Origin: a virus
Lineage: Duplodnaviria > Heunggongvirae > Uroviricota > Caudoviricetes
DNA: 64,000 nt
Reading direction: 5' to 3' (one strand)
Virus record (IMG/VR): IMGVR_UViG_2785510761_000002
Numbering within the stretch: position 1 is the stretch's first letter; each line of letters starts with the position of its first letter. Below, piece by piece: positions 22,411 through 30,264 of the stretch. The position numbers and the translations under genes are program-made. Under the pieces are notes generated by a model. That model had not been told where the DNA came from. It ran no database searches and saw only the letters and a program-made list of their open reading frames with translations.

Positions 22411-22484
22411 AGCGGATAGCGGGGATCGAACCCGCGGCCTCGAGTTTGGAAGACTCGCGCTCTACCAACGTGAGCTATATCCGC
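22411..22484 (-). tRNA. tRNA-Gly(TCC)
   Basis: Reverse complement folds as a canonical cloverleaf with anticodon loop CTTCCAA and T-arm GGTTCGATCC. Confidence 0.8.
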
Positions 22485-22551
22485 ATGGTGAGCTTGTACA
22501 GTCTCCCGGCGCTCACCTACCGGTCAATGTGCCCTCTTGTGGCCTGCTGCG

Positions 22552-22624
22552 TGCCCCCAGCAGGGCTTGAACCTGCGACCTGCGGATTAAAAGTCCGTAG
22601 CTCTACCAACTGAGCTATAGGGGC
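22552..22624 (-). tRNA. tRNA-Lys(TTT)
   Basis: Acceptor GCCCCTA/TGGGGGC, anticodon loop CTTTTAA, T-loop TTCAAGC. Confidence 0.8.
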
Positions 22625-22639
22625 GAACGGATCAAGAGA

Positions 22640-22765
22640 AAGAGTGGGCGGAGGGAATTACGCGCTCTACCCAGCTGAGCTACCGGAGCCGCCATCACGA
22701 CGATCCCGGGCCGGACTTGAACCGACGACCTCGTCCTTACCATGGAGTAACCTCCACCCTTCGCA
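22640..22765 (-). ncRNA. candidate Y RNA (YrlA-like): 9-bp terminal stem enclosing a permuted tRNA-like module
   Basis: Terminal pairing GGGTGGAGG / CCTCCGCCC. Internal T-arm GTCGGTTCAAGTCCGGC, then a closed acceptor-like stem, then D-arm GTAGCTCAGCTGGGTAGAGC. Sits between tRNA-Lys and tRNA-Asp, directly upstream of rsr. Confidence 0.45.
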
Positions 22766-22776
22766 CCTTGATCCTG

Positions 22777-22850
22777 CGACCCCGACCGGACTTGAACCGG
22801 CGACCTCCGCCGTGACAGGGCGGCACGCTACTCTTCTGCGCTACGGGGCC
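22777..22850 (-). tRNA. tRNA-Asp(GTC)
   Basis: Acceptor GGCCCCG/CGGGGTC, anticodon loop CTGTCAC. Confidence 0.8.
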
Positions 22851-23267
22851 ATGGTGCTTTCAATATTGAGTTGTTCCGACACTTCAATGCGCGGTGCATA
22901 GAGATTGTGAATATTTGACCCGAACTGAGTTGGGCTGATTGCGTCCACCATTCAGCGCTGGCCTCAGCACGCTGAGCTACAAGCTACAATCCCTGAGAGG
23001 GTGAGGCTAGATCATCAGTCGATGATGCCGTGCACACCGTCCACAAGGCGTTCGAGTGACTGTGATTCGTGTTGCTGAGTCTGACTTTGCTGAAACTGAT
23101 CCATGGTTCTTTCTTTCCTGTTGCGGGTGTCCGCGTTGATTTTTAAGGGCTGGCGATGGGATGCGAGCCCACCTGCCCGGATTTTCAGTCCGGTGTTTGA
23201 CCGATCAGCCACACCGGTGCAGTGGATTCCTATCCGGTACCTGTTCTGTGCGCGGTACCTCGCATCG

Positions 23268-23338
23268 CTCACCCGCAAGGATTCGAACCTCGACTTCCGG
23301 TACCAGAGACCGGCGTGCTGCCGTTACACCACGAGTGA
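23268..23338 (-). tRNA. tRNA-Gln(CTG)
   Basis: U1:A72-type acceptor TCACTCG/CGGGTGA. D-arm GTGGTGTAACGGCAGCAC typical of Gln. Anticodon loop CTCTGGT. Confidence 0.7.
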
Positions 23339-23464
23339 ATAGCGCCCCTTGTGCCTGGCTGCGCCCCCAGAGCGTTTCACGTCCGCCGACCCACGCCGTC
23401 CACTCACTGCTTCGTGGCCTTGGACTGTCGCCCTGCTCGTGACCGCAGTGGGCCGGTGTGTGGC

Positions 23465-23746
23465 TTAACCCATGCCGTTACGCTCCACTGCATGAGTGAT
23501 GTCCTCGGTAAGTTCAACGGAGCGTGCGACGACATCCAGTTCGAACGCCGCAACAATCTCTCCAGAGTCGTCATAGGTGACTCCTACCAGCCGGCCATCG
23601 AGCAGACCGTACTGGAACCTGCCGGTACCCTCCATGTTGGCGATGCTGAGATCCTCCGCGAGCACTTCGGCGGTGGGAAGCGGAATCTGATTGTTGAGCG
23701 ACATGATGACTCTCCTATCGGTCGATGGCTCTGTGCCGTCTGCCAT
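23465..23746 (-). CDS. hypothetical protein
   Basis: 93-aa ORF between tRNAs. GCCGCGCATAGAG-ATG start-associated motif 5 nt upstream. Confidence 0.4.
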   Translation of the reverse strand: MADGTEPSTDRRVIMSLNNQIPLPTAEVLAEDLSIANMEGTGRFQYGLLDGRLVGVTYDDSGEIVAAFELDVVARSVELTEDITHAVERNGMG

Positions 23747-23978
23747 CTCTATGCGCGGCGGAAATCTTGGGCATGCTTATCGTCCGTCGGAACGTGGCGG
23801 GGAGTTGAACCCCGAACCCAACCTGCACCAGCAGGCCAACGCAACCGGACTGTCCGTGACGAGCTCGGAGGCTTTTCGCCATTCGGCCGCACCGAAATGA
23901 TGCTGCAGCCTCGGTACTGGTCGTCATCCAGCTCCGAAACAGGGTTGGCGCACCGCGTCCAGTGTGCTTCGCCCGCCG

Positions 23979-24051
23979 TACCCGAGGCTGGGATCGAACC
24001 AGCGGCCGGCGCCATATGAAAGCGCTGCTCTGCCAACTGAGCTACTCGGGC
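23979..24051 (-). tRNA. tRNA-Met(CAT) (elongator type or tRNA-Ile2)
   Basis: Anticodon loop TTCATAT. G1.U72 acceptor pair. No initiator features. Confidence 0.75.
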
Positions 24052-24096
24052 AGGGTTGCGGCCTATGCGGCCGCTTGATTAGTCAATGCGCGGGGG

Positions 24097-24357
24097 CTAC
24101 TCGCCCTCCTGCAGCGTGCTTGTGGGCATGTCCAGCAGCTCCCTCTCGCTTAGCTCGCGCGCTTCCAACGCATCCGACATCTCCTTGCGGTGTTCGTACC
24201 TCATCCGGTGGGTGTCGCAGCAGAGATCTGATTCGTCTGGTTCCCCCACGCGGCTTGACAGCAAACAGTGCTCAGTCTCGGCGAGCTTGCCGTGCATGGC
24301 TGCTACGAGGATGTTGAGCTGATCGGGGGAGACTGAAATGTTGATGGGTGCGGGCAT
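24097..24357 (-). CDS. hypothetical small protein
   Basis: 86-aa ORF; third-position GC is high, about 70% by hand count. Confidence 0.35.
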   Translation of the reverse strand: MPAPINISVSPDQLNILVAAMHGKLAETEHCLLSSRVGEPDESDLCCDTHRMRYEHRKEMSDALEARELSERELLDMPTSTLQEGE

Positions 24358-28271: not shown

Positions 28272-28345
28272 ATGCCACTGATTCGTTGACACTGGTTCAG
28301 TGACCAAAACCTTGAGAGGCCGACTTCCGGTAGGTAGTCGGCTCG

Positions 28346-28429
28346 TGGCCCTCCCGGGGCTCGAACCCGGACGCTCTTTCGAGCACCGGCTTTTGAGGCC
28401 GGAATGTCTACCATTTCCAACAGAGAGCC
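28346..28429 (-). tRNA. tRNA-Leu(CAA)
   Basis: Type II. Anticodon arm CCGGC-CTCAAAA-GCCGG. Variable-arm hairpin GCTC-GAAA-GAGC. Confidence 0.8.
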
Positions 28430-28601
28430 AGGTGGCTGCTGCCGAGGACTTGAACCCCACCTCCCGGTATTCGCTCGGGCGCGCTTATCGCGGATCGCCA
28501 ACCCGTCATGACCTGGGAGTGCGATGTGCTCACAGTTGCCACGCTCGCCCCCGAAAGTGCACGCAGGGGAGTCACGTTCTTCCGATTGCGCCAAACAGCA
28601 G

Positions 28602-28674
28602 TGCGCCCGCCAGGGTTCGAACCTGGGGCCTACGGATTAAGAGTCCGCAGCTCTACCAACTGAGCTACAGGCGC
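28602..28674 (-). tRNA. tRNA-Lys(CTT)
   Basis: Acceptor GCGCCTG/CGGGCGC, anticodon loop CTCTTAA. Confidence 0.85.
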
Positions 28675-28839
28675 CGAGGGAGCTTGCATCCCATCCGCCG
28701 GCCTCACACCGACTTTTCCGAGTTTCACGGTCCTGTCCAGGCACTGCCTATGCAGCTCCGGAGCACCATCGTCAAGTGTTAGCCTGCCAACCTCGACGCT
28801 CCGCCACGGGCTCTCACCGTGGGTGATGCTCGATCCTCG

Positions 28840-28913
28840 TGGCCATCCTGGGACTCGAACCCAGAACCTTCTGATCCTAAATCAGACGCCTCTGCCAATT
28901 GGGCTAGACGGCC
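28840..28913 (-). tRNA. tRNA with anticodon TAG (Leu-decoding anticodon on a type-I, short-variable-arm scaffold)
   Basis: Acceptor GGCCGTC/GATGGCC, perfect anticodon stem TCTGA/TCAGA, loop TTTAGGA, T-arm CTGGG-TTCGAGT-CCCAG, 5-nt variable loop. Confidence 0.5.
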
Positions 28914-29266
28914 GGGTCCCGCACAATTTTGCAGCCGTGACAGCACCTATCCGCGGTGTGCCGTCCGTGCCTCATCTCCCACACCAGACTGCCTGGACTC
29001 ATGAACCCTGGCGCTATAGCTAACCAGGGTGGCGCGGTACGGGGGCGCGCGTAGGGAAGGGTGGTCCGGCTGCCTCCAGTATGAGACGCAACGCAACGTT
29101 TCGCATCACCGAACGCGGTATTGCACGCCTCAAAGGACGGGAGCCGGAAAAGTGTGTGTCTGCCGCGAGGGAATCTCCGCAGACCCTCGGCCTGCACGGT
29201 GGCGGGTTCCGAGGCTAGCCGCGCATGACGCGGCCGATACAACCCGAGCCGCTGGCTCGGATGTGG

Positions 29267-29341
29267 TCGGGACGACAGGATTTGAACCTGCGACTTCACG
29301 CTCCCAAAGCGCGCGCTCTAGCCAAGCTGAGCTACGTCCCG
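29267..29341 (-). tRNA. tRNA-Pro(TGG)
   Basis: C1:G72 acceptor CGGGACG/CGTCCCG as in bacterial tRNA-Pro. Anticodon loop TTTGGGA. Confidence 0.8.
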
Positions 29342-29669
29342 GTATTGCTGATTTCGGCCTATCCTAGACAGCGACCTTTGAGGTCACTTCACATGCACGG
29401 CTTAGCGAGGCTCAGCAGGGCCTGCCGCGTTTGTTCGGACAGTGTTGCGGCTGAGAGAAGAGGTTGACGAAAGGAATGATCGCGCTCTGCCGTTGAGCTA
29501 CGGAGCCTTACGGCACCGGCGGGATTTGAACCCGCATCTCGTCTTTGCAAATAGAAGTAACTCTCGTCTTCGCACCTCAGCCACGTAAGGGAGAACACCC
29601 GCCACCCGCGGAGCCGCACGCTCGAGTCGTACGGCAGCAATACCGGAGTTGAGCCGGCGCAGTTCTCTG

Positions 29670-29755
29670 TGGGCCTGGCAGGAGTCGAACCTGCGATGTG
29701 TCTAAACTGTGGCCGATTTACAGTCGGCTGCCTTCGCCACTCGGCGCACAGGCCC
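29670..29755 (-). tRNA. tRNA-Tyr(GTA)
   Basis: Acceptor GGGCCTG/CAGGCCC, anticodon arm GCCGA-CTGTAAA-TCGGC, long variable arm. Confidence 0.75.
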
Positions 29756-29834
29756 AAAGCCCGCGAATGCGGGCCCTGCCCACGTCGAAACGTGGACTAA
29801 TTCACAATCTCTATGGAGTTTTCAAGGTGCTTTG

Positions 29835-29907
29835 CGGGGCTGGCAGGGCTCGAACCTGCGACCACCGGTTTTGGAGACCGGTGCTCTACCAACTGAGCTA
29901 CATCCCC
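29835..29907 (-). tRNA. tRNA-Trp(CCA)
   Basis: Anticodon loop CTCCAAA, T-loop TTCGAGC. Confidence 0.8.
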
Positions 29908-30193
29908 AGATGCTCTTTCGAGCCGTTCGCATACTGAATGCGCGGTGTTTGGCGGGAAGGTTATCCGCCGAAAAGAGAATAAGCCCGGGACCGAATTTCG
30001 GTGCGCGGGCTTCGAGAGAAGATTGGGCCTAGATCGAGGCCGGTTTACCCGCAGGTGGAGGCGAATACAGATTATGGGTATGCGAGAGCCACTGCTGTGT
30101 GCTCAAACTGCGTCCCATGATTGTCTCCTGCTATTCGGATGTACCAACACTACACTTCACATCGAAAATAATTCAAGTTTTCATGTTGTTTCG

Positions 30194-30264
30194 CTGCCCC
30201 GTCAGGATTCGAACCTGAGCTTTCAGCTCCAAAGGCTGTCGTGCTGCCGTTACACTACGGGGCA
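30194..30264 (-). tRNA. tRNA-Gln(TTG)
   Basis: U1:A72 acceptor TGCCCCG/CGGGGCA, Gln-type D-arm, anticodon loop CTTTGGA. Confidence 0.75.

What the first reader, a model, noticed from the sequence alone, without database searches (positions are those of the whole stretch)
22411..30264. About 21-tRNA array plus tmRNA on one strand of a mobile element, with redundant isoacceptors
All RNAs are co-directional on the minus strand, and motif copies sit upstream of several blocks.

The set covers Gly, Lys (TTT and CTT), Asp, Gln (CTG and TTG), Met/Ile2, Thr, Arg (CCT, TCT, TCG), Ser (TGA, GCT), His, Asn, Ile, Leu(CAA), Pro, Tyr and Trp, plus a complete tmRNA. The tmRNA has the G3.U70 acceptor and the tag ASYKQRDLTLAA.

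Ala, Cys, Glu, Phe and Val are missing. A Phe-like (GAA) anticodon arm survives in a degenerate copy at about 23140-23260.

Such arrays are hallmarks of large actinophages and some actinobacterial plasmids or ICEs. They suggest codon-usage compensation or anti-defence against tRNA-targeting nucleases.
Basis: partly seen in the sequence, partly recalled or inferred. Interest (0 to 1): 0.6.

Follow-up and report, generated by a model that had tools for sequence, protein, structure and literature searches.

The report
Megaplasmid tRNA array with RNA-care genes

Summary
Window 22410-30264 holds, all on the minus strand, 21 ARAGORN tRNAs plus a Ser(TGA) tRNA that only Rfam detects, and a full tmRNA with tag ASYKQRDLTLAA and a G3.U70 pair. 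The Phe(GAA) copy is a pseudogene. No anticodon occurs twice.

The window is the last 64 kb of a 163-kb Leucobacter luti contig. It is 61% GC, against 69.5% reported for another L. luti assembly. Its backbone is conjugative (VirB4-like ATPase, FtsK/SpoIIIE, cell-wall hydrolase, SSB). The ATPase has relatives only on actinobacterial megaplasmids, including pMP7017 and pCPAA3, and none in phages.

New here:
- Two YrlA-type Y RNAs lie inside the array, and a short Y RNA candidate sits just upstream of rsr.
- The array runs straight into rsr (Ro60/TROVE) and orn (oligoribonuclease).
- A motif, gCCGCGCATTCa, sits 29-45 nt upstream of most tRNA blocks and upstream of many element genes.

The layout of an array with an embedded rsr, often with a tmRNA, recurs in relatives, among them a pMP7017-like Bifidobacterium plasmid.

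The carried anticodons track the codons the element uses more than high-GC chromosomal genes do. The best reading is therefore codon-matched tRNA supply packaged with ribosome rescue and RNA quality control. Anti-nuclease defence remains an untested rival. This is a new member of a known kind, of moderate interest.

The parts
30380..30388 (-). promoter-like motif copy (CCGCGCATT), about 115 nt upstream of tRNA-Gln(TTG)
   Evidence: the motif is over-represented in the window (41 matches against 17.4 expected)
30193..30264 (-). tRNA-Gln (TTG)
   Evidence: 62.9 bits; 87.5% identical to the L004 orthologue
29937..29945 (-). promoter-like motif copy, 30 nt upstream of tRNA-Trp
   Evidence: conserved at the same place in L004 (position 2543)
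29834..29907 (-). tRNA-Trp (CCA)
   Evidence: 71 bits
29669..29755 (-). tRNA-Tyr (GTA)
   Evidence: 54.5 bits; 68% identical to the L004 copy in the pairwise alignment shown
29449..29590 (-). Y RNA 2, YrlA-like (terminal stem, GUGCGAAG motif, T arm then D arm, no anticodon arm)
   Evidence: Rfam YrlA 30.8 bits, below the gathering score; fold z-score -2.5; own model 135.7 bits, but this sequence was in the training set; conserved in L004 at 85% against 55-71% for spacers; covariation
29264..29341 (-). tRNA-Pro (TGG)
   Evidence: 63.4 bits
28948..28956 (-). promoter-like motif variant (CCGCGGATA), 35 nt upstream of tRNA-Leu(TAG)
   Evidence: 1 mismatch
   Evidence: 60.5 bits; 98.7% identical to the L004 copy
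28601..28674 (-). tRNA-Lys (CTT)
   Evidence: 72.6 bits
28345..28429 (-). tRNA-Leu (CAA)
   Evidence: Rfam 42.2 bits in the E-value scan; 91.8% identical to the L004 copy
28199..28271 (-). tRNA-Ile (GAT)
   Evidence: 67.4 bits
27124..28083 (-). ORF of 319 aa inside the array, with a weak HipA-like catalytic-loop motif (IIGNTDRINN...PPFDFG)
   Evidence: called in the NCBI record; 86% identical protein in L004; PDB profile hit to HipA residues 293-338 at E 0.085; PADLOC PDC-M03A at E 9.5e-6; no Pfam, NCBIfam or PHROG family
26936..27163 (-). ORF of 75 aa overlapping the end of the 319-aa ORF; the pair is conserved
   Evidence: the same pair is in L004 and in Leucobacter sp. HY1910
26803..26875 (-). 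tRNA-Asn (GTT)
   Evidence: 70.5 bits
26468..26541 (-). tRNA-Arg (TCG)
   Evidence: 60.4 bits
26391..26466 (-). tRNA-His (GTG) with encoded CCA, abutting the next tRNA
   Evidence: against L004 all five anticodon-stem pairs differ and still pair
26305..26390 (-). tRNA-Ser (GCT)
   Evidence: 55.6 bits
25963..26044 (-). tRNA-Ser (TGA) with an atypical D arm
   Evidence: Rfam tRNA 31.2 bits and tRNA-Sec model 42.9 bits; anticodon loop read; the orthologue is called by ARAGORN in L004
25765..25839 (-). tRNA-Arg (TCT)
   Evidence: 66.4 bits
25589..25663 (-). tRNA-Arg (CCT)
   Evidence: 64.6 bits
25176..25560 (-). tmRNA with tag ASYKQRDLTLAA and a G3.U70 pair; CCA not encoded
   Evidence: (119.8 bits, full model)
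25003..25076 (-). tRNA-Thr (TGT)
   Evidence: 60 bits
24085..24093 (-). promoter-like motif copy, 34 nt upstream of tRNA-Met
23978..24051 (-). tRNA with anticodon CAT (elongator Met or Ile2 type, not an initiator)
   Evidence: 61.7 bits; G1.U72 and no run of three G-C pairs at the foot of the anticodon stem
23750..23758 (-). promoter-like motif copy upstream of the 79-aa ORF (23465-23704)
   Evidence: conserved in L004 (position 8160)
23267..23338 (-). tRNA-Gln (CTG)
   Evidence: 57.1 bits
23147..23218 (-). tRNA-Phe (GAA)-like pseudogene
   Evidence: 29.8 bits; mismatched acceptor stem and aberrant T loop; not conserved in L004, which has a HAD_PNKP ORF in the corresponding interval
22886..22894 (-). 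promoter-like motif copy, 36 nt upstream of tRNA-Asp; heads the block Asp - Y RNA 1 - Lys - Gly - short Y RNA - rsr - orn
22776..22850 (-). tRNA-Asp (GTC, discriminator G73); the orthologous gene in L004 is Val (CAC, discriminator A73)
22630..22775 (-). Y RNA 1, YrlA-like, about 350-500 nt upstream of rsr on the same strand
   Evidence: Rfam YrlA 35.6 bits, E 9e-5, full-length but below the gathering score of 69; 89.5% identical to the L004 copy; own model 110.6 bits, but this sequence was in the training set; covariation
22551..22624 (-). tRNA-Lys (TTT)
   Evidence: 71.1 bits
22410..22484 (-). tRNA-Gly (TCC)
   Evidence: 66.7 bits; 100% identical to the L004 copy
22325..22409 (-). candidate short Y RNA (YrlB-like): terminal stem UGAACACUG/CAGUGUUCA, the same GGUGCGAAG...UUACUUCC motif, no tRNA-like module
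   Evidence: 93% identical to L004 across the interval; folds (z-score -3.3 for the L004 copy); weak hit of the own model at 22.6 bits
20713..22284 (-). rsr, the Ro60/TROVE RNA-binding protein (523 aa), with a vWA-type DxSxS motif
   Evidence: Pfam TROVE 47 bits against a cut-off of 23; more than 5000 homologues named TROVE; D359, S361 and S363 invariant
20686..20694 (-). promoter-like motif copy upstream of orn
   Evidence: conserved in L004 (position 12371)
20084..20641 (-). orn, oligoribonuclease (185 aa)
   Evidence: NCBIfam NF003765 equivalog, 171.4 bits against a cut-off of 106; Pfam RNase_T

Best explanation
The interval is an accessory 'translation and RNA-care' island on a conjugative megaplasmid-type element of Leucobacter luti.

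**Layout (shown).** The array is split by a repeated element-specific motif, gCCGCGCATTCa, which sits upstream of most tRNA blocks. That this motif is a promoter defining several transcription units is inferred.

**Processing (inferred).** The transcripts would be cut by host RNase P and the host 3' processing enzymes. Most would then receive CCA from the host enzyme, because only tRNA-His is seen to encode it.

**Products.**
- About 21 functional tRNAs.
- A tmRNA.
- Two YrlA-type Y RNAs and one short Y RNA candidate.
- Ro60 (Rsr) and oligoribonuclease, whose genes follow the last block.

**Main role (inferred from composition).** The tRNAs top up the isoacceptors that a 69%-GC host keeps scarce but the 61%-GC element needs. 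In every four-codon box represented, only the U34 species is carried. The readers of AGA, AGG, UUG, CAA and AAA are carried too, along with the single tRNAs of two-codon boxes. This would let plasmid genes be translated without stalling or draining the host's tRNA pool.

**Supporting roles (inferred from established knowledge of these families).** The tmRNA rescues ribosomes that stall anyway. Rsr with its Y RNAs, together with a host exonuclease, and Orn clear misfolded or damaged structured RNA and the resulting nanoRNAs.
For: **Functional genes.**
- The RNAs are called by two independent methods.
- The array is syntenic with relative L004, whose rsr protein is 82% identical. tRNAs average 87% identity against 55-71% for spacers.
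- tRNA-His keeps its stems through compensatory changes.

**Element type.**
- Conjugation genes are present.
- The VirB4-like ATPase has homologues only on actinobacterial megaplasmids, including pMP7017 and pCPAA3, and none in phages.

**Codon match.**
- The window is 61% GC with GC3 of 0.72. L. luti RF6 is reported at 69.46% GC.
- A proxy of 6283 chromosomal codons from Arthrobacter and Leucobacter has GC3 of 0.88.
- All 15 carried anticodons that are Watson-Crick cognates of A- or G-ending codons read codons that are more frequent in the element than in the proxy.
- None of the 6 codons depleted in the element (CTG, GTG, CGG, CCG, GCG, ACG) has a carried cognate. My own calculation from that table gives C(14,6)/C(29,6) = 0.006.
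- The eleven rare codons tested total 95 per 1000 in the element, against 44 per 1000 in a small Leucobacter chromosomal sample.

**Precedent.** In pMP7017 the plasmid tRNAs and tmRNA are highly transcribed, and its authors found plasmid codon usage to match the plasmid tRNA set (PMC10832533).

**Y RNAs and Rsr.**
- Across 27 sequences, 94.5% of cells form standard pairs, against 36-52% when the partners are slid, and 21 of 23 pairs show changes on both sides.
- Hits that were not in the training set score 35-99 bits and, wherever rsr position can be judged, lie close to rsr on the same strand.
- orn passes its equivalog cut-off.
Against: - The set is not a pure demand list. GCA (Ala) has the largest excess of any A-ending codon in the element, and GAA is frequent, yet no Ala or Glu tRNA is carried.
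- The host comparison uses proxy chromosomal genes from other strains and genera, not L. luti itself.
- Only 54% of element codons can be read by the carried set under simple wobble rules.
- Closely related arrays (L005 with 37 tRNAs, L066 with 36) are nearly complete, including the G34 and C34 majors. That fits a broader role than rare-codon supply.
- RNA-repair genes accompany rsr or the array in relatives: HAD_PNKP in L004, RtcB in L067, and an RNA ligase in the Bifidobacterium plasmid. This points towards coping with RNA damage.
- No expression data exist for this element.
- No sigma-70-like promoter or intrinsic terminator was found.
Confidence: 0.5

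Rival explanations
1. Anti-defence and RNA-damage tolerance. The array replaces host tRNAs that anticodon nucleases or tRNA-targeting toxins of a new recipient cleave when foreign DNA enters. The tmRNA frees ribosomes stalled on the resulting gaps. Rsr with its Y RNAs, Orn, and in relatives PNKP, RtcB or an RNA ligase, remove or mend the fragments.
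For: - Rsr, Y RNAs and orn are physically embedded in or fused to the array.
- RNA-repair genes sit in or near related loci: HAD_PNKP in L004, RtcB next to rsr in L067, and an RNA ligase 3 kb from rsr in the pMP7017-like plasmid.
- rsr inside a tRNA array recurs across many mobile-element contigs.
- Recent literature treats tRNA array units as putative anti-defence systems (PMC12803027).
- Ro/TROVE is listed as part of RNA-repair platforms in jumbo phages (PMC7824862).
- From my own knowledge: Lys(UUU), the Arg isoacceptors, and Tyr, His, Asn and Asp are classical targets of PrrC, colicin D and colicin E5. All are present here. The absent Ala, Val and Phe are not classical targets.
Against: - No anticodon nuclease or tRNA-targeting toxin was identified. 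The host and recipient genomes could not be read. PADLOC scans of 20 window proteins found only DNA-level defence-like hits.
- The window itself has no RNA ligase, RtcB or PNKP.
- The carried tRNAs look canonical, so there is no sign of nuclease-evading anticodon loops. For example, Lys(TTT) is 95% identical to a Nocardia tRNA.
- The anticodon choice is well explained by codon demand.
Confidence: 0.27
2. Stress-inducible back-up translation set. The array is normally repressed and is switched on under translational stress such as antibiotics or starvation, like the plasmid trn operon of Anabaena. It would then benefit the host rather than the plasmid.
For: - There is a precedent: a 26-gene tRNA operon on an Anabaena megaplasmid is controlled by the repressor TrcR and activated under translational stress (PMC10272220, abstract seen).
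- The shared gCCGCGCATTCa motif could be an operator or a special-sigma promoter that allows coordinated control.
- Rsr is known to act in stress-related RNA decay (Chen et al. 2014).
Against: - The same motif precedes many ordinary element genes, so it is not specific to the array.
- No regulator was identified next to the array.
- In pMP7017 the array is highly transcribed in the cultures used for the transcriptome.
Confidence: 0.1
3. Phage or prophage cargo. The window would be part of a large actinophage or phage-plasmid, and the array would serve late phage translation as in cluster C mycobacteriophages.
For: - Ro-like proteins with YrlA, many tRNAs and a tmRNA are known in actinophages (Chen et al. 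2014; Ro-like genes in Streptomyces and Gordonia phages).
- Many relatives of rsr lie on contigs that IMG/VR classifies as viral.
- Two window ORFs hit PHROGs of unknown function.
Against: - No capsid, portal, terminase or tail family was found among the 56 window and upstream ORFs scanned across the four libraries.
- The backbone ATPase has no phage hit and 16 megaplasmid hits.
- There is no near-DNA match to any of 50,697 phage records beyond single tRNAs.
Confidence: 0.05
4. Ordinary chromosomal tRNA island, or neutral hitch-hiking DNA with no selected function.
For: - tRNA array units also occur on chromosomes in some phyla (PMC4758250).
- One member (Phe) has decayed, and the array content differs between relatives.
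Against: - GC content is 8 points below the species value, and the flanks are conjugation and anti-restriction genes.
- L. luti RF6 is reported with only 46 tRNA genes.
- tRNAs and Y RNAs are much better conserved than spacers and show compensatory changes.
- In the Asp/Val switch the anticodon and the discriminator base changed together.
Confidence: 0.03

Closest known systems
pMP7017-family conjugative megaplasmids of Bifidobacterium (190 kb; tRNA array unit plus transcribed tmRNA; PMC10832533)
   Same: - An actinobacterial conjugative megaplasmid with about 20 co-directional tRNA genes and a tmRNA.
- It is enriched for readers of rare codons (AGA, AGG, GGA, CCA, UCA).
- It shares a VirB4-like ATPase, 27% identical over 95% of the protein.
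- The relative NZ_CP146883 also has an rsr/TROVE gene inside its array, annotated there as 'hypothetical protein', and an RNA ligase nearby.
   Different: - A different order of hosts (Micrococcales against Bifidobacteriales), with no DNA similarity.
- A different tmRNA tag (ASYKQRDLTLAA against ANTVSSSRFTL[AV]A).
- Here there are clear YrlA-type Y RNAs and an orn gene. Only a weak Y-RNA-model hit (26.5 bits) was seen in the Bifidobacterium locus.
- The pMP7017 paper does not contain the word TROVE.
Micrococcales megaplasmids with tRNA arrays: Arthrobacter caoxuetaonis NZ_CP099467 (375 kb) and Curtobacterium pusillum pCPAA3 (567 kb, reported to carry a tmRNA)
   Same: - They have the closest backbone ATPase, 40-41% identical over 98-99% of the protein.
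- The Arthrobacter plasmid has 34 co-directional tRNA genes.
- Individual tRNAs are 88-91% identical to those in the window.
   Different: - These plasmids are much larger and carry fuller tRNA sets, including Ala, Val, Glu and Phe.
- None of them is among the 30 best plasmid records in the tblastn search with Rsr. That search matched 74 records, of which 44 were not listed.
- The Arthrobacter array sits among secY, secG, clpX and dut rather than next to rsr and orn.
tRNA array units of Mycobacterium plasmids, prophages and phages (Morgado and Vicente 2018, PMC5966550; M. avium giant linear plasmids, PMC12803027)
   Same: - They meet the same operational definition: at least 20 tRNA genes at 2 or more per kb.
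- They lie on mobile elements of Actinomycetota.
- Some include a tmRNA and other structured RNAs or ribosome-rescue genes.
   Different: - A different family of hosts, with no sequence relationship shown.
- Those papers do not report Ro60 or Y RNAs in the arrays. The searches for TROVE, Ro60, 'Y RNA' and 'RNA-binding' gave 0 hits.
rsr-YrlA loci (Chen et al. 2014, PMC4201824; Rfam RF02553), including mycobacteriophages that encode Ro60
   Same: - Y RNAs lie on the same strand as rsr, and two of the three are within 500 nt of it.
- They have a tRNA-like module (T arm, then D arm).
- The 5' motif UGCGAAG is close to the published GNCGAA(N)G.
- A second, shorter Y RNA sits next to rsr, as with YrlB.
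   Different: - The scores are below Rfam's gathering threshold (35.6 and 30.8 against 69).
- One copy lies 7.2 kb from rsr, outside the 4-kb rule.
- The Y RNAs are interleaved with real tRNA genes, a context that Chen et al. deliberately filtered out to avoid tandem-tRNA artefacts.

Membership tests
tRNA array unit (Tran et al. 2016 definition, PMC4758250) | At least 20 tRNA genes in one region | tested here: met
   ARAGORN finds 21. Adding Ser(TGA) from Rfam makes 22. Removing the Phe pseudogene leaves 21.
tRNA array unit (Tran et al. 2016 definition, PMC4758250) | Density of at least 2 tRNA genes per kb | tested here: met
   21-22 genes in 7855 bp gives 2.7-2.8 per kb.
tmRNA (Rfam RF00023) | Covariance-model score above the gathering cut-off over the full model | tested here: met
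   119.8 bits against 47, model positions 1-374.
tmRNA (Rfam RF00023) | Alanine-accepting tRNA-like domain (G3.U70) and an internal tag reading frame that ends in a hydrophobic degron and a stop codon | tested here: met
   5' GGGGGCG pairs with 3' CGCCUCC. The frame GCC AGC TAC AAG CAG CGC GAC CTC ACC CTC GCG GCC TAA encodes ASYKQRDLTLAA.
tmRNA (Rfam RF00023) | Works with SmpB | not tested
   No SmpB family appeared among the window and upstream ORFs scanned, but the scan was not exhaustive. A host SmpB is presumed.
YrlA-type bacterial Y RNA (Rfam RF02553; Chen et al. 2014) | Rfam gathering score | tested here: not met
   35.6 bits (E 9e-5, full length) and 30.8 bits (partial), against a cut-off of 69.
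YrlA-type bacterial Y RNA (Rfam RF02553; Chen et al. 2014) | Within 4 kb of rsr, on the same strand, and not a tandem-tRNA artefact | tested here: met
   Y RNA 1 (22630-22775) lies 350-500 nt upstream of rsr on the minus strand and overlaps no tRNA call. Y RNA 2 is on the same strand but 7.2 kb away, so it fails the distance rule.
YrlA-type bacterial Y RNA (Rfam RF02553; Chen et al. 2014) | Closed by a 5'/3' stem that carries the Ro-binding motif, and contains a T-arm/D-arm tRNA-like module | tested here: met
   Consensus fold. On 27 sequences, 94.5% of cells pair and 21 of 23 pairs show double changes, against 36-52% paired when partners are slid. The alignment was fitted to the model, which favours it. 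The motif is UGCGAAG, against the published GNCGAA(N)G.
YrlA-type bacterial Y RNA (Rfam RF02553; Chen et al. 2014) | Bound by Rsr in vivo | not testable with these tools
   Needs Rsr immunoprecipitation and Northern blots.
Ro60/Rsr (TROVE, PF05731) | TROVE domain above the Pfam cut-off, plus a vWA domain with a DxSxS MIDAS motif | tested here: met
   47 bits against 23. D359, S361 and S363 are invariant in 10 relatives. More than 5000 homologues were found, and every source-given name among the 120 listed is TROVE, RNA-binding or hypothetical protein.
Oligoribonuclease Orn (NCBIfam NF003765, equivalog) | Score above the curated equivalog cut-off | tested here: met
   171.4 bits against 106, covering residues 5-181 of 185.
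Actinobacterial conjugative megaplasmid (pMP7017 / pCPAA3 / Arthrobacter type) | Shared conjugation backbone (VirB4-like ATPase, coupling ATPase, cell-wall hydrolase) | tested here: met
   AAA_10 at 26.9 bits, just under the 27.5 cut-off. Full-length tblastn hits on 15 megaplasmids at 25-41% identity. FtsK_SpoIIIE, and Phage_lysozyme2 plus M23.
Actinobacterial conjugative megaplasmid (pMP7017 / pCPAA3 / Arthrobacter type) | Autonomous replicon (a Rep protein, a closed circle or linear ends) rather than an integrated element | not tested
   Only 64 kb of the 163-kb contig plus 10 kb upstream could be read. No rep, par or integrase gene was seen in that part. A related gene pair in Leucobacter sp. 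HY1910 lies in an integrated element with a tyrosine integrase.
Large actinophage with tRNA array (for example cluster C mycobacteriophages) | Virion structural and packaging genes; similarity to known phages | tested here: not met
   No structural family in Pfam or PHROG scans. No near-DNA phage match. The backbone ATPase is absent from phages.

The most novel reading that the evidence does not exclude
The array, tmRNA, three Y RNAs, Rsr and Orn would form one co-regulated module, driven by the shared gCCGCGCATTCa motif. Actinobacterial plasmids and phages would carry it as a unit to keep translation running when RNA-targeting immunity or toxins strike. The Y RNAs would be produced from the same precursors as the tRNAs by RNase P. 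Rsr would then be specialised for clearing cleaved or misprocessed array tRNAs. The recurrent 'rsr inside a tRNA array' layout would mark a previously unrecognised class of RNA-level counter-defence island. That layout is seen here in Leucobacter, Brevibacterium, a Bifidobacterium plasmid and many unclassified large contigs.
Probability: 0.25. Interest if true: 0.65.

Novelty: new member of a known kind. Interest (0 to 1): 0.38.

Why it matters
**Already described.** tRNA array units with a tmRNA on actinobacterial plasmids and phages are known, so the array itself is not new.

**What this case adds:**
- It is a clean example in Microbacteriaceae.
- It is a compact, reduced array whose retained anticodons can be read against codon demand. 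That gives one of the clearer in-silico arguments for codon matching.
- The Ro60-Y RNA system, known from chromosomes and a few phages, is repeatedly built into plasmid and phage tRNA arrays. This includes the well-studied pMP7017 family, where the gene is annotated as hypothetical.

**Why the last point is useful.** It offers a tractable route to the still unclear function of bacterial Ro60 and Y RNAs. Deleting rsr or the Y RNAs on a plasmid, and then following plasmid tRNA maturation, plasmid establishment and resistance to tRNA-cleaving nucleases, would test that function directly.

Tried and rejected
- **Near-DNA searches.** Megablast of the array and flanks against phage and plasmid collections returned only single-tRNA matches or nothing. 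There is no close sequenced relative in those sets.
- **Genome collection scan.** The host chromosome could therefore not be read, and proxy chromosomal genes had to be used.
- **Promoters and terminators.** The sigma-70 promoter scan found 0 sites, and the terminator scan found fewer than the shuffles. Transcription units are inferred only from the new motif.
- **Direct repeats.** The search returned only the conserved tRNA arms. The upstream motif was found by k-mer counting in the spacers.
- **Folding of Y RNA 1 alone.** Its energy was no better than shuffles (z-score +0.55). Support for it comes from comparison between sequences, not from thermodynamics.
- **Structure of the 319-aa ORF.** Prediction from a 4-sequence alignment gave pLDDT 37.8, so no fold search was run. 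The HipA-like reading rests on one weak motif-level match.
- **Remnant of the L004 PNKP gene.** None is present in the window.
- **Defence systems.** PADLOC found no tRNA- or RNA-targeting defence protein among 20 window proteins.
- **Rejected idea: the YrlA hits are tandem-tRNA artefacts** (the caveat of Chen et al.). They overlap no tRNA call. They have closing stems with covariation. They share a 5' motif with the tRNA-less short copy next to rsr.

Full report
**1. The observation**

ARAGORN finds 21 tRNA genes and one tmRNA between 22410 and 30264, all on the minus strand. Rfam at gathering thresholds confirms the tmRNA (119.8 bits, full model) and 19 of the 21 ARAGORN tRNAs at 54-73 bits.

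Rfam adds a weak tRNA at 25963-26043. ARAGORN calls its orthologue in a relative. Leu(CAA) reaches 42 bits in the E-value scan.

- The Phe(GAA) copy at 23147-23218 barely passes (29.8 bits). It has a mismatched acceptor stem, a weak D arm and an aberrant T loop. It is not conserved in the closest relative.
- The tmRNA tag ASYKQRDLTLAA and the G3.U70 pair can be read from the sequence.
- All 22 anticodons differ, so 'redundant isoacceptors' means several isoacceptors per amino acid, not duplicated genes.
- Ala, Cys, Glu and Val are absent.
- At 2.7-2.8 genes per kb, the region meets the published definition of a tRNA array unit.

**2. Where it sits**

The Ro60-like protein next to the array is identical to a Leucobacter luti protein on contig SNYA01000009.1 (163,250 bp) of GCA_004362775.1. 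The window is the last 64 kb of that contig.

The window is 59-64% GC throughout. L. luti RF6 is reported at 69.46% GC with 46 tRNA genes (PMC12027743).

The flanks encode:
- an FtsK/SpoIIIE ATPase of 1246 aa;
- an SNF2 helicase, a NERD protein and split GmrSD pieces;
- a lysozyme+M23 hydrolase of 827 aa;
- SSB, DprA and UmuC;
- two DNA methyltransferases, an SPFH/flotillin protein and a DUF7007 protein.

Just upstream of the window lies an 836-aa AAA_10 (VirB4-like) ATPase. That ATPase has full-length homologues at 25-41% identity on 15 actinobacterial megaplasmids. These come from Arthrobacter, Pseudarthrobacter, Paenarthrobacter, Curtobacterium (including pCPAA3), Euzebya and Bifidobacterium (pMP7017 and its relatives). 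It has none in 50,697 phage records.

No phage structural family was found. There is no near-DNA match to known phages or plasmids beyond single tRNAs.

The element is therefore a conjugative megaplasmid or ICE-type element, not an actinophage and not a chromosomal island. Whether it replicates autonomously could not be tested.

**3. What else is in the interval**

A permissive Rfam scan gave two sub-threshold hits to YrlA, the tRNA-like bacterial Y RNA. One is at 22631-22754, between Lys(TTT) and Asp. The other is at 29484-29538, between Pro and Tyr.

Chen et al. 2014 warn that tandem tRNAs can mimic YrlA. These hits, however:
- overlap no tRNA call;
- share a 5' GGUGCGAAG motif;
- have a closing stem formed by their two ends.

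Both are conserved at the same positions in the syntenic relative L004, at 85-90% identity against 55-71% for spacers.

I built a covariance model from seven such sequences. It found further copies, absent from the training set, beside rsr in independent loci at 35-99 bits. Nearly all lie a few hundred nucleotides upstream of rsr on the same strand.

On 27 sequences, 94.5% of cells form standard pairs and 21 of 23 pairs show changes on both sides. Sliding the partners gives only 36-52% paired. The alignment was fitted to the model, which favours it, but the slid controls are far lower.

A third, short element at about 22325-22409, directly upstream of rsr, has the same motif and a terminal stem but no tRNA-like module. 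It is 93% identical in L004. It resembles the short YrlB type.

The array runs straight into rsr (TROVE, 47 bits, DxSxS motif). An oligoribonuclease equivalog follows (171 bits against a cut-off of 106).

**4. The upstream motif**

K-mer counting in the spacers revealed gCCGCGCATTCa. At one mismatch there are 41 copies in the window, against 17.4 expected. None of 100 shuffles reached 41.

The copies are mostly intergenic. They lie 29-45 nt upstream of the 5' ends of Asp, the Phe-like gene, Met, Leu(TAG), Trp and ORF79. One lies about 115 nt upstream of Gln(TTG), and others precede orn and many protein genes.

The motif is conserved at corresponding sites in L004. L005 has the variant ACGCGCATAG, including upstream of its tmRNA and its Y RNA.

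The motif is an element-wide promoter or operator candidate, and it divides the array into several units. No sigma-70 consensus promoter or intrinsic terminator was detected.

**5. Are the genes under selection?**

Against L004 (Rsr 82% identical, same gene order, 22 tRNAs plus a tmRNA with tag ASFKQRDLALAA), tRNAs average 87% identity and the tmRNA 80%, against 55-71% for spacers.

tRNA-His differs at all five anticodon-stem pairs and in the T and acceptor stems, and every pair is kept.

One orthologous gene has switched identity. It is Asp (GTC, discriminator G73) in the window and Val (CAC, discriminator A73) in L004, on a body 87-91% identical. This argues for selection on function rather than decay.

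**6. How general is the layout?**

Many of the closest Rsr relatives also sit inside tRNA arrays:
- L005: 37 tRNAs plus a tmRNA;
- L066: 36 tRNAs;
- Brevibacterium oceani L010 and L068: 19 tRNAs;
- many large IMG/VR contigs: 27-41 tRNAs, often with a tmRNA.

In contrast, an Arthrobacter chromosomal rsr has a YrlA but no array.

A pMP7017-like Bifidobacterium longum plasmid has RepA, then a tmRNA, then 23 tRNAs flanking a TROVE gene annotated as hypothetical, and an RNA ligase 3 kb away.

RNA-repair genes accompany some relatives: HAD_PNKP inside the L004 array, and RtcB next to rsr in L067. The window itself has no remnant of the PNKP gene.

In the held literature, tRNA arrays with a tmRNA on actinobacterial plasmids and phages are described. 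So is Ro60 with YrlA in mycobacteriophages. I found no paper that links TROVE/Ro60 to plasmid tRNA arrays. That is absence in this library only.

**7. Function**

Element genes have GC3 of 0.72. A proxy of 6283 chromosomal codons from Arthrobacter and Leucobacter has GC3 of 0.88.

- In every four-codon box represented (Gly, Thr, Pro, Ser UCN, Leu CUN, Arg CGN), only the U34 isoacceptor is carried. No G34 or C34 major species of a four-codon box is present.
- Among the 29 A- or G-ending sense codons, all 15 with a carried Watson-Crick cognate are more frequent in the element than in the proxy.
- None of the six codons depleted in the element has a carried cognate. By my own calculation from that table, the probability is 0.006.
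- The eleven rare codons tested total 95 per 1000 in the element, against 44 per 1000 in a small Leucobacter chromosomal sample.

This matches what was shown experimentally and statistically for pMP7017.

Against a pure demand model:
- GCA and GAA are frequent, yet Ala and Glu tRNAs are missing.
- Related arrays are nearly complete.
- RNA-repair genes cluster with rsr in relatives.

I therefore rank the explanations as follows:
- codon-matched tRNA supply with ribosome rescue and RNA quality control: 0.5;
- anti-nuclease or RNA-damage tolerance: about 0.27;
- stress-inducible back-up, after the Anabaena precedent: 0.1;
- phage origin: 0.05;
- chromosomal or neutral: 0.03.

No step of expression, processing or Rsr binding has been shown for this element. 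All of these are inferred from the families involved.

**8. Verdict**

The locus is a new member of a known kind, namely actinobacterial megaplasmid tRNA array units with a tmRNA.

Two points go beyond the finding. The Ro60-Y RNA-Orn module is embedded in the array and recurs in other mobile elements. And the anticodon repertoire tracks the element's codon excess. Interest is moderate.

Noticed in passing
window 22776-22850 against L004 9434-9508: Orthologous tRNA genes with bodies 87-91% identical have different identities. The window copy is Asp (anticodon GTC, discriminator G73). The L004 copy is Val (anticodon CAC, discriminator A73). The anticodon and the discriminator base changed together, so this is a tRNA identity switch inside the array.
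   Followed up: partly
window 26305-26541: Arg(TCG), His and Ser(GCT) are packed with spacers of 1 and 0 nt. tRNA-His encodes its CCA, which abuts the first base of tRNA-Ser. RNase P cleavage of Ser would therefore create the mature His 3' end. The body of window Ser(GCT) closely resembles L004 Ser(CGA) at the same position.
   Followed up: partly
window-wide, for example 7702-7710, 17376-17384, 36503-36511, 46071-46079, 58201-58209, 59862-59870, 62967-62975: The motif gCCGCGCATTCa has 27 exact CGCGCAT[TA] copies, and 41 copies at one mismatch against 17.4 expected. Nearly all are intergenic and oriented with the downstream gene. It is conserved in related elements (L004; the variant ACGCGCATAG in L005) and absent from unrelated loci. 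It is probably the element's own promoter or operator signal.
   Followed up: partly
window 26936-28083 (minus strand): A conserved gene pair of 319 aa and an overlapping 75 aa lies inside the array. The larger protein has a HipA-like catalytic-loop motif (PDB profile E 0.085 to HipA residues 293-338) and a weak PADLOC PDC-M03A hit (E 9.5e-6). The same pair occurs without tRNAs in an integrase-bearing element of Leucobacter sp. HY1910. The structure prediction was too poor to use (pLDDT 37.8).
   Followed up: partly
L070 (Bifidobacterium longum plasmid NZ_CP146883) 4285-15232: This pMP7017-like megaplasmid carries a TROVE/Ro60 homologue (42% identical) annotated as 'hypothetical protein', in the middle of its tRNA array and tmRNA. 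An 'RNA ligase family protein' lies 3 kb downstream. The pMP7017 transcriptome paper does not contain the word TROVE.
   Followed up: partly
window 46140-47834; L005 17335-18762; L066 18789-20156; L067 3727-4605: An SPFH/Band_7 (flotillin-like) protein recurs near rsr and the arrays: within about 10 kb of rsr in three related loci, and about 24 kb from rsr in the window. The reason is unknown.
   Followed up: no
window 9930-13621 and 60039-60614: DNA-level defence or anti-restriction cargo flanks the array. It includes a GmrSD_C-like ORF, an SNF2 helicase (PADLOC DpdE/ZorD-like, E 1e-28) and a NERD protein. A separate GmrSD_N-like ORF lies 50 kb away. There are also two DNA methyltransferases at 36469-37854 and 38366-40243, with no nuclease partner identified among the ORFs scanned.
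   Followed up: no
window 24358-25002: About 630 nt between ORF86 and tRNA-Thr have no counterpart in L004. This stretch holds a 181-aa plus-strand ORF (24447-24992) with no family match, so it is probably a recent insertion.
   Followed up: no
window 23789-23862 and 22970-22984: There are extra tRNA-like fragments. One is a relaxed ARAGORN call with a 2-base 'anticodon', which coincides with a weak mascRNA-like Rfam hit. The other is a D-arm-like repeat. They suggest further decayed tRNA genes in the spacers.
   Followed up: no
L003 (Arthrobacter caoxuetaonis plasmid NZ_CP099467) 4240-13176: This 375-kb plasmid has 34 co-directional tRNA genes covering 20 amino acids. They are embedded among secY, secG, clpX, dut, NUDIX and DHFR genes. 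The plasmid shares the backbone ATPase with the window's element.
   Followed up: partly
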